Below are positions 56,445-60,812 of a stretch of 64,000 nt of DNA, one piece after another; the first letter of the stretch is position 1, and each line of letters starts with the position of its first letter. The notes under the pieces are model-generated. The model was not told where the DNA came from. It saw only the letters and a list, made by a program, of their open reading frames with translations, and made no database searches. The DNA comes from the human T2T-CHM13v2.0 reference genome, Homo sapiens. The stretch is taken from the NCBI RefSeq assembly GCF_009914755.1, contig NC_060928.1. One strand, given 5' to 3'. A program made the translations under genes and the position numbers.

Positions 56445-56462
56445 ACTTAGTGAAATTAGCAC

Positions 56463-56781
56463 TTTTTTTTTTTTTTTTTTTGAGACAGAATCTCTCTCTG
56501 TCGCCCAGGCTGGAGTGCAATGGCTCAATCTCGGCTCACTACAACCTTTGCCTTCTGGGTTCAAGGGATTCTCACGTCTCAGCCTCCCAAGTAATTGGGA
56601 TTACAGGCACCTGCCACCACGCCCAACTAATTTGATTTTTTTTTTTTTTTTTTTTGTATTTAGTAGAGACAGGGTTTCACCATGTTGGTCAGGCTGGTCT
56701 CTAACTCCTGACCTCAGGTGACCCACCCACCTCACCCTCCCAAAATGGTGGGATTACAGGTGTGAACCACTGTGCCCAGCC
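56463..56781 (-). mobile_element. AluS
   Basis: TSD aaattagcac (56453-56462, 56782-56791). Confidence 0.95.
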
Positions 56782-57131
56782 AAATTAGCACATTTTATAT
56801 ACTGTGTTGAAATTCACAGGAAAGCTTGTCTTCTGTAAATGACTTTTGAATACAGATTTGTTCAGACATCTCTAACATTACACATACTGTACTGGTCCAC
56901 TGGATTGAAGGCAGAGAGAAGGAAGGGAGGAGAGAATGGTTCAAGGCCAAAATGGTCATATTTAGAAGATACCTCAGATTATAACCATTATTATATATGT
57001 GCAATTTTAACATAGCAGAAAAGTTATATGAAATTTCCAGTCTTTCTACATATTTAGAAGTGCTTGATGCATTTAAACGTAGAAGTAGTAGAATAACACT
57101 TCTTATAAATAGCTATTAAAAACTGATGGGA

Positions 57132-57440
57132 GGCCGGGCATGGTGGCTCATGCCTGTAATCCCAGCACTTTGGGAGGCCAAGGTGGGCGGATCACCTGAG
57201 GTCAGGCGGTTGAGAGTTTGAGACCAGCCTGATCAACATGGAGAAACCCTGTCTCTACTAAAAATACAAAATTAGCCCAGTGTGGTAGCGCATGCCTGTA
57301 ATCCCAGCTACTCGGGAGGCTTAGGCAAGAGAATCTCTTGAACCCGGGAAGTGGAGGTTGCAGTGAGCCAAGATCGCGTCATTATACTCCAGCCTAGGCA
57401 ACAAGAGTGAAATTCCATCAAAAAAAAAAAAAAAAAACCA
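57132..57440 (+). mobile_element. AluS (AluSp-like)
   Basis: tgatcaacatggagaaaccc; TSD aaaaactgatggga / aaaaactgacgaga. Confidence 0.95.
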
Positions 57441-59193
57441 AAAAACTGACGAGAAATACTGTGCTTGGAAGTAGAATTGTTAATCCACCTCTGAACAGTG
57501 AACAGTGTACTTTCTATACTTGTTCATTGGGTTGAGGGAGATGGGAGGGAAGAAATTGCAAAAGGCATTTTGCTAGTGTGTACTAGAAAATGTCAGCTTA
57601 TCCATTGTCCTTTATACCCAAATGCCCTTGACAGTGCATTTTATTTAACTTAACTATACTGTATATACTGTATATATTGGACAAATGAATCCTAATTTTA
57701 TAATATCTAGTCACTAGATATTAGAGATTGTCAATGTATGACAAAAGGAGAGTTAGTAAACTAACACATTTTGTACATTTTATGTTAAGATGTATACAAA
57801 GATTGTATTTTGAAAAAGACTTCAGGAAGTGAAATGATAGCATCAGCTTTGACACATGTGCCCATATTTACCAGGTTGTTCGTAGAGAGGAGTTGAAAGA
57901 AATAAAGGATTCTAGACCAGAACGTTCCTATTTAGAAAACACTTTCAGATATAACAGTTGTTACATGTGTGTAGTTTATTCAACAATACTGTGTATATAG
58001 TAAACAAACTTAAGTCTTTATTTGAAACAGCTAGTCTTTCTAGATATTTAGAAGTACGTAAATATGTTAAAAGTAGAGGTAGTAAATTTCCACATTTTAT
58101 AGATAGCCTTTTGATATAAAATATTGTCCCTTGGAAAGTGATCAAACCACTCCTCTGAGCAGTACACATTATTTGTGCTGGTACAGGGAGGAAGGAGGAG
58201 AAGAAAGTGCAAAGGCCTTTACACCAGTGTGTTTATGGTGAGGCACAATTGACCACTGTTCCTTGTATCTACATTTTCTTTTACTTTGCTGTGTATATAG
58301 TATATATAAATGGGCAAACGTATCCTAATTTACAACATCTAGTCTTTCTAAATGTTAAAGAGTTTGCCAGTGTATGACAAAAGCAGAGGTTAGTAAACTA
58401 ATAAATTGAGAACATTTTGTTTTAAAATTCATAAGAAAGACTATTCTTAAAAACACTTAAAGAAGTGAAATTGTTAAATCTTGTCTAAGCATTACAAATG
58501 CTTATACCTGTCAACTGTGTTGATAGAGGTAGGAAGGGGAAGGGTTCTAGGCCAGAATGTTCTTATTTAGAAGACACTTTCAAATATAACCTGTGTTATG
58601 TGCACCACTTATTTAATGCTACTGTGTCTATGGTGGAAAACTTAAGTCCTATTTGAAATATCTAGTCTTTTCACATGCTTAAAATTGCACAACATAGTTT
58701 AAAACTAGAGGGCTAAAGTAACACCCTGAGGTAGTTTTTTGGTTAATTCCTAGGAGTGGTTGTGCTTGGGAATGCAATTGTTAAGCTTGATGTTTGGAGA
58801 GTATGCTGACTGTTTATTGGGTGGCAGCAAGTCAGGGGAGGAGAAAGTATGCATGCAGAAGTGTTCCGTGCCTGTAAGTTTGATTAGGTCGGATGTTCTA
58901 ACCATTGTTGTATATGTGCCTTTTAGTTAGTACTGTTATGTATTAAAGGATAAATAAGTCCTAATCCCCAAAGTATGTTAAAAGTAGAGGTAGTAAAACA
59001 GTTCCTACATAAATGTCTTCTCACTGGTTTTTGGGAAGGCCTGTCTTCTGGGAGTGACTTTTGTTAATCCAACTCTTGGAACTAGATGTAGTCCTATATT
59101 TAGTCACTGGGATAGTGGAAAAGGGAAAAGAGGAAAAGTGAAGGGAAGGGCTGTTTGTTAGTATCTCTACATACAGAAGAGGGTTTTAGATGA

Positions 59194-59568
59194 TGTATTA
59201 GTCGGTTCTCATGCTGCTAATAAAACCATACCGACGACTGTGTAATTTATAAAGGAAAGAGGTTTAATTGACTCACAGTTCAGCATGGCTGGGAATGCTT
59301 CAGGAAATTTACAATCATGGTGGAAGGTGAAGGGGAAGCAAGGCACTTACTTCACAGGGCAGCAGCAAGAAGTTTAAGGAGGGGGAATGCCAGACAATTA
59401 TAAAACCATCAGATCTTGTGAGACTCATTCATTATCAGGAGAACAGCATGGGGGAAACAGCTCCCATGATTCAATTACCCCCACCTGGTCCTGCACTTGA
59501 CATGTGGAGATTATGGGGATTACAATTCAAGGTAAGATTTTGGTGGGGCACAGAGCCAAACCATATCA
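59194..59568 (-). mobile_element. THE1 (THE1C/D-like) MaLR solo LTR
   Basis: tgtattagtcggttctcatgctgctaataaa ... cagagccaaaccatatca; 5-bp TSD gatga / gataa. Confidence 0.92.
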
Positions 59569-60215
59569 GATAATAACCGTAGATCTATATGAGCATTGTT
59601 AGTAAAGCACCTAAGTGTATTGTGAACAAATTTAATTATTTTGCAACATCTAAGCTTTATAAATGTCTTGGGGTAACAATGTATGATAAAAAAGTAGAGC
59701 TAGTGAATTAACCAATTTGTAAATTTTTTTTGTTATAATTGATAGAAAAGATACGTCTTGGACATAGAATTATTAAACTGCCTCTGAGTAGTGTGTGTAA
59801 GGATTTGTTCATTAGGTTGGCATCAGAAGGGCAGAAGCAAATACAAAGGGAAAGATGTATGCAGATGTTTTCATATTTACATTTTGACAATAGCCATTGA
59901 GGTATGTGCATCTCTTGTGGTTGTACCATAGGAATACATTAATTAATTCAGTGGAAACATACATTCTTATTAATATTTTAATGGTATAGATCTGCTAATG
60001 AATTCTCTTAGAAACATACTTAGTATATTCTGTTGCATTATGTTTCATTTTAAATTGAGCATTAAGAGAATACAGTATTTTAATTTGAACTCTTTCAACG
60101 CTTTTATCTATAAGCATGTTGTCATTTTTGTCTTCTATGAAATTTTTACCCCAAGAAAGGCAGAATTATGTTTTTGTTTTCTTTTTTCCGACAGATTAAG
60201 TTGGTGTGATGTATT

Positions 60216-60507
60216 TTATTTTTGTTTGTTTGAGTTGGAGTCTCGCTCTGTCGCCCAGGCTGAAGCGCAGTGGCACAATCTCGGCTCACTGCGGCCTCTG
60301 CCTCCTGGATTCAAGCAATTCTCCTGCCTCAGTCTCCCAAGTAGCTGGGATTACAGGTGCCCAAAACCACACCAGGCTAATTTTGTATATTTAGGAGAGA
60401 CGGGGTTTCTCCATGTTTACCAGGCTGCTCTCAAACTCCTGAGCTCAGGTGATCTGCCCAGCCTCCCAAAGTGCTGGGATTACAGGCGTGAGCCACTGAG
60501 CCTGGCA
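60216..60507 (-). mobile_element. AluS
   Basis: TSD tggtgtgatgtatt (60202-60215) / tggtgtggtgtatt (60509-60522). Confidence 0.93.
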
Positions 60508-60812
60508 ATGGTGTGGTGTATTCTTGATTATCAAAATACTCCTATAGCTTTGGGACTTTTTATTGGTAAATATTCATGATATTCATTGTAAGTATTTAGT
60601 ATATATCGTGAAAAACCATGATACATACCGTACAATCTCAATCCCATAAAATCGGATGTTGTGTCTATACACACACAGGACCCAGAAGGACATATCAAGC
60701 TGTAAACTGCTTGTGATTGTGGATGGCTTTGTTCTTTGCTTCTTGTGTTTTTTAGTTTCCTATTATGCACATGTTAACTTTTAAAAAATAAAGATTATTT
60801 TTAAAGCCTGGG

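What the first reader, a model, noticed from the sequence alone, without database searches (positions are those of the whole stretch)
56445..60812. Retrocopy of the PUMILIO-decoy lncRNA NORAD 35 kb downstream of CXCL8
Seen: about 3 kb of non-transposon AT-rich sequence with internal ~300-bp repeats, ending in AATAAA and a short A run. It splits an L1 ORF2 between the YQNLWDT and VLRGKF codons with TSD-like ends, so it is a retroposed polyadenylated non-coding RNA. Recognised from memory as the middle and 3' part of NORAD. Established: NORAD sequesters PUM1/2 through UGUANAUA elements and has multiple pseudogene copies, including transcribed HCG11. Inference: the copy is on the same strand as CXCL8, inside a strongly inducible domain, downstream of sense-oriented LTR1 promoters, and has its own poly(A) signal. 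Read-through or LTR-driven transcription could therefore produce an inflammation-inducible PUM-binding RNA. Expression cannot be seen from sequence.
Basis: partly seen in the sequence, partly recalled or inferred. Interest (0 to 1): 0.8.

Follow-up and report, generated by a model that had tools for sequence, protein, structure and literature searches.

The report
Old truncated NORAD pseudogene near CXCL8
This stretch is an old, 5'-truncated and transposon-riddled retrocopy of the lncRNA NORAD sitting inside an L1 element, one of dozens of such copies in the human genome, and nothing in its sequence suggests it still works.

Summary
Window 56449-60810 (+) is a processed pseudogene of NORAD. 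It aligns colinearly to NORAD nt ~2128-5339 of 5339 and stops at NORAD's own poly(A) site. A GGGAAAAAA remnant and a decayed target-site duplication follow, and the copy splits a sense-strand L1 ORF2. I identified the chr20 parent independently of memory, using both published NORAD qPCR primers, its 5,339-nt span and its 15 UGUANAUA sites.

The copy is old: 85.8% identity over 2,882 aligned nt, K2P 0.16. It lacks the Alu that NORAD and its young copies carry. It was later interrupted by three Alus and a 371-bp high-copy LTR.

Only 4 of the 9 NORAD Pumilio sites it covers survive. That fits neutral decay: AT-rich 8-mers survive at 31%, binomial P = 0.29. It has no promoter of its own and lacks NORAD's 5' 40%. 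No RefSeq gene lies there.

The genome holds at least 33 other NORAD-like loci, and the abundance of NORAD pseudogenes is in print. The inflammation-inducible Pumilio decoy idea has no sequence support, and expression could not be tested here. Verdict: an ordinary dead retrocopy of low interest.

The parts
56346..56448 (+). 5' flank: decayed L1 ORF2 (end of the endonuclease region), reading ...[11 protein letters not shown]
   Evidence: Translation. The motif name is from recall. The L1 identity of the element rests on the 3' flank.
56433..56444 (+). Upstream target-site duplication (AAAAAGTACTAA), preceded by TTT, which fits the L1 endonuclease TT|AAAA target
   Evidence: Local alignment to 60816-60829: 11 matches and 1 mismatch over 12 aligned positions, plus a 2-nt gap. 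The TT|AAAA consensus is recalled.
56449..60810 (+). NORAD processed pseudogene, 5'-truncated. It corresponds to NORAD nt ~2128-5339. 3,040 nt are NORAD-derived and 1,322 nt are later inserts.
   Evidence: Colinear alignment. Chain statistics: 2,882 aligned nt, 85.8% identity, K2P 0.16. Sizes.
56463..56781 (-). Alu insertion 1, flanked by an exact 10-bp TSD AAATTAGCAC (56453-56462 and 56782-56791)
   Evidence: Rfam Metazoa_SRP partial matches on the - strand. Sequence read.
57131..57446 (+). Alu insertion 2 with A-tail (interval includes one TSD copy, AAAAACTGA-G)
   Evidence: Rfam Metazoa_SRP match at 57133-57257 on the + strand. Gap in the alignment to NORAD.
57660..57676 (+). Two retained Pumilio response elements UGUAUAUA (57660-57667 and 57669-57676), matching NORAD nt 2641 and 2650
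57992..57999 (+). Retained PRE, matching NORAD nt 2974
58292..58299 (+). Retained PRE, matching NORAD nt 3277. The adjacent NORAD PRE (nt 3286) is lost here (TATATATA).
59198..59568 (-). Solo LTR of a high-copy ~370-bp family, TG...CA on the - strand. THE1/MST-like from recall; family name not tested.
   Evidence: Own-genome search: 8,185 first-look candidates. Of the 40 matches scored, one is this element itself; the other 39 cover at least 333 of the 371 nt at 82-85% identity, and 21 of those 39 span all 371. It forms a gap in the alignment to NORAD.
60217..60522 (-). Alu insertion 3 (interval includes one TSD copy; TGGTGTGATGTATT against TGGTGTGGTGTATT)
   Evidence: Rfam Metazoa_SRP matches on the - strand..
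60787..60792 (+). AATAAA inherited from NORAD, 18 nt upstream of the end of homology
60811..60819 (+). Poly(A)-tail remnant GGGAAAAAA, running into the downstream TSD
60816..60829 (+). Downstream target-site duplication (AAAACTAGTGCTAA)
60820..62063 (+). 3' flank: continuation of the same decayed L1 ORF2 (KLVLRGKFIGTNAF..., reverse-transcriptase region)
   Evidence: Translation. PDB LINE-1 ORF2p match at E 1.7e-21, residues 616-711. Short stop-free pieces gave no Pfam hit.

Best explanation
A NORAD transcript was reverse-transcribed by the L1 machinery and inserted, 5'-truncated at about nt 2128, into a TT|AAAA site within an older sense-strand L1 ORF2. This happened tens of millions of years ago, before NORAD acquired its own Alu. 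The copy came without a promoter and has decayed neutrally since. It collected three Alus and a solo LTR and lost 5 of the 9 Pumilio sites it brought along. It is a non-functional processed pseudogene, one of at least 34 NORAD-derived loci in this genome. Its closeness to CXCL8 is coincidental.

Shown: identity, boundaries, truncation, inserts, PRE loss and neutral 8-mer retention.
Inferred: the age in years and the absence of function.
For: Parent identified without recall of its sequence:
- Both NORAD qPCR primers from Supplementary Table 2 of PMC4947167 match L013 (chr20, minus strand) as a convergent pair. L013 is the only one of the 16 loci held at that time with both.
- Full-length retrocopies share 5' ends at C20rc 558-563 and 3' ends at 5897-5899. 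That gives 5,339 nt, the length stated in PMC7976429 (passage).
- The locus has 15 UGUANAUA sites. The same paper gives 'at least 15'.

Retrocopy anatomy:
- Five colinear blocks cover C20rc 2692-5897.
- Homology ends at the parent's poly(A) site, and NORAD's downstream genomic sequence does not align.
- An A-run and a TSD are present.
- L1 ORF2 lies on both flanks.

Age:
- 85.8% identity, K2P 0.16, rank 17 of 24 rows.
- NORAD's Alu (C20rc 4223-4510) is absent here. It is also absent from six other copies of 83-89% identity whose chains abut across that junction (L015, L020, L022, L026, L029, L031). It is present in L014, L017 and L018 at 94-97% identity.

No sign of selection:
- 4 of 9 PREs are intact, against a 30.8% retention of AT-rich CpG-free 8-mers; binomial P = 0.29.

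Context:
- The own-genome search found 33 further NORAD-like loci besides NORAD and this copy. This is my clustering of the 98 matches and a lower bound.
- PMC4947167 states that a large number of NORAD pseudogenes exist and that they do not appear expressed except HCG11.
Against: - Four exact UGUAUAUA in 4.4 kb is still more than chance: the window-wide shuffle mean of 12.75 per 128 kb of both strands gives about 0.4 expected. An RNA spanning this region could therefore bind PUM.
- The terminal AATAAA is intact.
- The copy is on the same strand as CXCL8 and as a + oriented ERV LTR pair upstream.
- 4 of 9 is nominally above the 24-31% baseline.
- No expression, CLIP or cross-species data could be consulted, so 'not transcribed' is inferred, not shown.
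Confidence: 0.9

Rival explanations
1. Read-through from CXCL8, or transcription from the upstream sense LTRs, produces an inflammation-inducible, polyadenylated RNA that spans the copy. This RNA sequesters PUM1/2 through the retained PREs.
For: Same strand as CXCL8. Four intact UGUAUAUA sites. Intact AATAAA at 60787. A + oriented LTR pair with TATAAA and AATAAA-type signals at about 41.1 and 48.2 kb. HCG11 is a precedent: a NORAD retrocopy that is transcribed (PMC4947167; PMC5758885).
Against: - The copy starts 34,968 bp beyond the CXCL8 poly(A) site, with 60 AATAAA and 26 ATTAAA on the + strand in between. There are 3 more AATAAA and 3 ATTAAA inside the copy before the terminal one.
- A retrocopy ends at the cleavage site, so it does not bring the parent's downstream element.
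- Four PREs against 15-17 in NORAD. NORAD itself is <1% of expressed PREs in HEK293 (PMC5758885), so a 4-site RNA would need extreme abundance to matter.
- PRE retention is neutral.
- There is no RefSeq transcript (hub table).
- The 5' 40% of NORAD is missing.
- Read-through RNA is typically chromatin-retained, while PUM acts in the cytoplasm (established knowledge, recalled).
Confidence: 0.03
2. The copy, or the transposons inserted in it, has been co-opted as a DNA-level regulatory element (an enhancer or boundary) of the CXCL cluster, independent of any RNA function.
For: It lies inside a chemokine gene cluster between CXCL8 and CXCL6 (hub table). Alu and LTR insertions often supply transcription-factor sites (general knowledge, recalled). 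No tool result speaks for this.
Against: RefSeq functional elements list only a silencer at 16797-17091 in the window (hub table). The sequence shows neutral-looking decay. No chromatin data were available.
Confidence: 0.03
3. The region is not a retrocopy but a DNA-level (segmental) duplication of the NORAD locus or of another NORAD copy.
For: None beyond the homology itself.
Against: Homology stops at NORAD's poly(A) site, and NORAD's downstream flank does not align. An A-run and a TSD are present. Both flanks are one continuous L1 ORF2. The best other match in the genome is only 81% identical, and none shares the flanks.
Confidence: 0.01

Closest known systems
NORAD (LINC00657), chr20q11.23, the parent gene
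   Same: Colinear sequence over NORAD nt ~2128-5339. The ~300-nt repeat-unit architecture, UGUAUAUA sites at four parental positions, and the same AATAAA and cleavage site.
   Different: Lacks the promoter and the first ~2.1 kb. Has 4 PREs against 15 UGUANAUA. 14% mismatches plus indels. Four transposon insertions. Lacks the Alu present in NORAD. No annotated transcript.
HCG11 (chr6p22.2), the transcribed NORAD retrocopy
   Same: Both are NORAD-derived retrocopies on other chromosomes. L014 is taken as HCG11 from its position on chr6 at ~26.39 Mb and from the 6p22.2 location given in PMC7976429.
   Different: In my chain, HCG11 is near full-length (NORAD nt 3-5339), 94.0% identical, keeps 13 of 16 PRE positions and contains NORAD's Alu. 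It is reported as transcribed from an LTR-derived promoter (PMC5758885). The window copy is much older, truncated and PRE-poor, and has no evident promoter.
The other old NORAD processed pseudogenes in this genome (for example C13:27.76 Mb, C6:86.41 Mb, C23:77.69 Mb, C16:64.53 Mb)
   Same: Same identity range (83-89%). Most are 5'-truncated, lack NORAD's Alu, are interrupted by later insertions, and show PRE retention near the 8-mer baseline.
   Different: Only the insertion site differs: here, inside L1 ORF2 in the CXCL8-CXCL6 interval.

Membership tests
NORAD processed pseudogene (L1-mediated retrocopy) | Colinear homology to the mature parent transcript | tested here: met
   Five colinear blocks cover C20rc 2692-5897. 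2,882 aligned nt at 85.8% identity.
NORAD processed pseudogene (L1-mediated retrocopy) | The parent locus really is NORAD | tested here: met
   Both published qPCR primers match L013 as a convergent pair. The span is 5,339 nt (against PMC7976429). It has 15 UGUANAUA sites.
NORAD processed pseudogene (L1-mediated retrocopy) | Ends at the parent's poly(A) site, followed by an A-tract not encoded in the parent locus | tested here: met
   Homology ends at 60810, 18 nt after AATAAA, followed by GGGAAAAAA. The parent continues TATTAAGCCC. The A-run is short and decayed.
NORAD processed pseudogene (L1-mediated retrocopy) | Flanking target-site duplication at a TT|AAAA-type site | tested here: met
   56433-44 against 60816-29: 11 matches and 1 mismatch over 12 aligned positions, plus a 2-nt gap. 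TTT precedes the upstream copy. It is degenerate, as expected at this age.
NORAD processed pseudogene (L1-mediated retrocopy) | Loss of introns relative to the parent | not testable with these tools
   NORAD is a single-exon gene (PMC7976429), so this criterion carries no information.
Functional PUMILIO-decoy lncRNA (NORAD / HCG11 type) | High number and density of PREs (15-19 per ~5.3-5.7 kb) | tested here: not met
   4 UGUANAUA on the + strand in 4.4 kb. 4 of 9 parental sites are retained.
Functional PUMILIO-decoy lncRNA (NORAD / HCG11 type) | PREs maintained by selection (retained above the neutral background) | tested here: not met
   4 of 9 against the 30.8% AT-rich 8-mer baseline; binomial P = 0.29. 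This is a within-species proxy only; no cross-species test was possible.
Functional PUMILIO-decoy lncRNA (NORAD / HCG11 type) | Own promoter and abundant, stable, cytoplasmic transcript | not testable with these tools
   No expression data were available. RefSeq lists no gene between CXCL8 and CXCL6 in the window (hub table). The copy is 5'-truncated and so brought no promoter.
Functional PUMILIO-decoy lncRNA (NORAD / HCG11 type) | PUM1/2 crosslinking to the RNA | not testable with these tools
   No CLIP data were at hand. Published pipelines map reads to NORAD first because of the many pseudogenes (PMC6407921), so copy-specific signal would need re-analysis.

The most novel reading that the evidence does not exclude
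In strongly stimulated cells, transcription running through the CXCL8-CXCL6 interval, or starting in the upstream sense LTRs or in the inserted repeats, yields a polyadenylated RNA ending at the inherited NORAD poly(A) signal. Its four UGUAUAUA sites bind PUM1/2, giving a small inflammation-linked addition to the NORAD/HCG11 decoy pool.
Probability: 0.03. Interest if true: 0.45.

Novelty: new member of a known kind. Interest (0 to 1): 0.1.

Why it matters
It matters little. The practical value is as a caution. NORAD has dozens of dispersed copies, so NORAD-like reads, probes or PRE clusters near inducible genes such as CXCL8 should be treated as pseudogene background unless copy-specific evidence exists. 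The family table also gives a rough time series of NORAD retroposition, from 83% to 98% identity. It shows that NORAD gained its Alu between the ~89% and ~94% identity layers.

Tried and rejected
- Rfam scan of 55000-62500 at E up to 1: only Alu-related hits (Metazoa_SRP and Alu-derived miRNA families) and two weak, below-threshold chance-level hits (snoR64a at E 0.58, outside the copy; SMAD5-AS1_3 at E 0.33, inside Alu 2). No NORAD family matched, so Rfam could not settle the identity.\n- Tandem Repeats Finder: did not report the ~300-nt units. The repeat finder did.\n- Pfam on short stop-free L1 pieces and on two ERV ORFs: 5 of 7 queries gave nothing. L1 identity was obtained instead from the PDB sequence search.\n- Family-wide control: I planned to include 11 more NORAD-like loci. 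They cover open-access full text only.\n- Segmental duplication was considered and rejected (see rivals).\n- The name 'LTR1' for the upstream LTRs and the name 'THE1/MST' for the inserted LTR could not be tested, because no repeat library was available.
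Full report
WHAT IS THERE

Reading window 55400-62000 shows an AT-rich stretch between two pieces of one decayed sense-strand L1 ORF2. The upstream piece translates to ...[11 protein letters not shown]. The downstream piece translates to KLVLRGKFIGTNAF... and continues into reverse-transcriptase sequence. Window 61725-62063 matches solved human LINE-1 ORF2p at residues 616-711, E 1.7e-21.

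Inside the stretch, the repeat finder reports direct-repeat families spaced 300-333 nt apart. The + strand carries four exact UGUAUAUA sites, at 57660, 57669, 57992 and 58292. Rfam found only Alu-type matches (7SL and Alu-derived miRNA families) at three places, plus two weak chance-level hits.

IDENTIFYING THE PARENT WITHOUT RELYING ON MEMORY

A search of the window's own genome with 57441-59197 gave 98 matches. I clustered these into 34 loci other than the window itself. This is a lower bound: 56 first-look candidates were found and 40 were scored. One of the loci lies on contig 20 at 37.77 Mb, minus strand.

I fetched that locus as L013. I then took the NORAD qPCR primer pair printed in Supplementary Table 2 of Tichon et al. 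2016 (PMC4947167; supplement passage). Both primers match L013 exactly and face each other. Of the 16 loci held at that time, L014 has only the forward primer and L016 only the reverse.

Chaining BLAST hits of this locus against 23 other NORAD-like loci shows two shared boundaries. Near-full-length copies start at locus positions 558-563. Copies that reach the 3' end stop at 5897-5899. The span 559-5897 is 5,339 nt, exactly the NORAD length given in PMC7976429 (passage). The locus carries 15 UGUANAUA sites, and the same paper gives 'at least 15'. L013 is therefore NORAD.

THE ALIGNMENT

BLAST and a MAFFT global alignment give one colinear path:

| Window | NORAD locus (C20rc) |
|---|---|
| 56782-57131 | 2692-3053 |
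| 57536-58693 | 3088-4221 |
| 58681-59194 | 4507-5022 |
| 59568-60215 | 5016-5641 |
| 60509-60810 | 5628-5897 |

Read across the first Alu, the copy begins at about 56449. This corresponds to NORAD nt ~2128.

It ends at 60810, 18 nt after the inherited AATAAA (60787-60792), exactly where the other retrocopies end. NORAD's downstream genomic sequence does not align. Instead there is GGGAAAAAA, and then a repeat of the pre-insertion L1 sequence. The two copies are 56433-56444 and 60816-60829, with 11 matches and 1 mismatch over 12 aligned positions plus a 2-nt gap. The upstream copy is preceded by TTT. That fits the L1 endonuclease target TT|AAAA; the consensus is recalled.

This is the full signature of L1-mediated retroposition of a polyadenylated RNA, with 5' truncation. 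A DNA-level duplication is excluded.

LATER EVENTS

Four blocks are absent from NORAD:
- Alu 56463-56781 (-), with a perfect 10-bp TSD.
- Alu about 57131-57446 (+).
- A 371-bp element at 59198-59568 (-).
- Alu about 60217-60522 (-).

The 371-bp element is a very abundant dispersed unit. The own-genome search gave 8,185 first-look candidates. Of the 40 matches scored, one is the element itself. The other 39 cover at least 333 of its 371 nt at 82-85% identity, and 21 of them span all 371. It therefore looks like a solo LTR. 'THE1/MST-like' is my recollection, not a test.

Conversely, NORAD contains an Alu at locus 4223-4510 that the window copy lacks. That Alu is also missing from six other copies of 83-89% identity whose chains abut across the junction (L015, L020, L022, L026, L029, L031). 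It is present in L014, L017 and L018 at 94-97% identity. The window copy was therefore made before NORAD acquired that Alu.

AGE

Over 2,882 aligned nt the copy is 85.8% identical to NORAD counting mismatches only, with K2P 0.16 and 73 gap columns. It ranks 17th of 24 rows.

NORAD is strongly conserved, so most of this divergence should lie on the pseudogene branch. At commonly used mammalian neutral rates (recalled) this means several tens of millions of years, perhaps 60-100. The inserted LTR differs from its closest relatives by 15-18% pairwise, or roughly half that from their common source, which fits a later arrival. These ages are inference. No other mammalian genome was available to test orthology.

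IS THERE ANY SIGN OF RETAINED FUNCTION?

The copy covers 9 of NORAD's 16 non-overlapping PRE positions and keeps 4. As a control within the copy, I asked how often any NORAD 8-mer survives intact in the same alignment. The answer is 23.9% overall and 30.8% for AT-rich, CpG-free 8-mers. Four or more of nine at 30.8% has binomial P = 0.29.

Across the 24 rows, PRE retention tracks overall identity. The only nominal outlier is a chr9 copy (L029): 10 of 14 retained, P = 0.006, which is not significant after 24 tests.

Other points against function:
- The copy lacks NORAD's first ~2.1 kb and, being a retrocopy, any promoter.
- It contains 3 further AATAAA and 3 ATTAAA hexamers on the + strand before the terminal signal.
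- 60 AATAAA and 26 ATTAAA lie on the + strand in the 34,968 bp between the end of CXCL8 and the copy.
- RefSeq annotates no gene there (hub table).

THE UPSTREAM 'SENSE LTR PROMOTERS'

A pair of ~0.8-kb direct repeats lies at about 40995-41800 and 48070-48870, 7.05 kb apart and 77-83% identical. Each has TATAAA followed by an AATAAA-type signal on the + strand. A + strand Gag_p30 remnant sits between them at 47027-47503 (E 3.8e-14). An antisense dUTPase-bearing retroviral fragment lies at 43298-43798 (E 4.4e-12).

So a class-I-type ERV in sense orientation does lie 8-15 kb upstream. The name LTR1 was not testable, and such LTRs terminate their own transcripts.

WHAT IS KNOWN

- Tichon et al. 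2016 (PMC4947167; passages) state that NORAD's high germline expression has probably produced a large number of pseudogenes throughout mammalian genomes. Four human copies share >90% identity over >4 kb, and they do not appear to be expressed except HCG11. My table recovers exactly four such copies: L018 at 97.0%, L017 at 94.9%, L014 (HCG11) at 94.0% and L016 at 91.5%.
- Kopp et al. [quoted passage not shown]
- Bohn et al. [quoted passage not shown] An RNA with four sites would therefore be quantitatively irrelevant unless extremely abundant.
- My searches found no paper on this particular copy. They cover open-access full text only.

VERDICT

The observation and the identification are correct. 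The functional speculation has no support in the sequence, and several features count against it. Expression and PUM binding remain untested here. This is an ordinary, ancient, truncated and interrupted NORAD processed pseudogene.

Noticed in passing
window 40995-48870: A sense-oriented ERV remnant. Two ~0.8-kb LTR-like direct repeats lie 7.05 kb apart (77-83% identical), with TATAAA and AATAAA-type signals on the + strand. A + strand Gag_p30 remnant lies at 47027-47503. An antisense dUTPase-bearing retroviral fragment at 43298-43798 appears to be a second element inserted into, or rearranged within, the first.
   Followed up: partly
window 35251-35656: A TA-rich tandem repeat with a ~140-bp unit (family D3) carries 21 of the window's 48 TGTANATA matches, on both strands. 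This simple-repeat cluster mimics a PRE cluster about 14 kb downstream of CXCL8.
   Followed up: no
L029 (G000:C9:38679000-38688999): A NORAD retrocopy of 88.2% identity keeps 10 of 14 PRE positions, against a 35% 8-mer baseline. Nominal P = 0.006, not significant after 24 tests.
   Followed up: no
L033 (G000:C5:25289500-25299499): The youngest-looking copy, 98.4% identical, covers only NORAD nt 3-2595. It is 3'-truncated rather than 5'-truncated, which is unusual for a retrocopy. Possible causes are an internal priming site, a later deletion or a large insertion.
   Followed up: no
L022 + L023 (G000:C3:136528000-136547999): One NORAD retrocopy is split in two by roughly 8.6 kb of inserted sequence. 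The halves cover NORAD nt 275-2973 and nt 2964-5334.
   Followed up: no
L013 (NORAD locus), C20rc 4223-4510: The Alu inside NORAD is present in the 94-97% identical copies (L014/HCG11, L017, L018). It is absent from the window copy and from six other copies of 83-89% identity whose chains abut across that junction. This dates its insertion into NORAD between those layers.
   Followed up: partly
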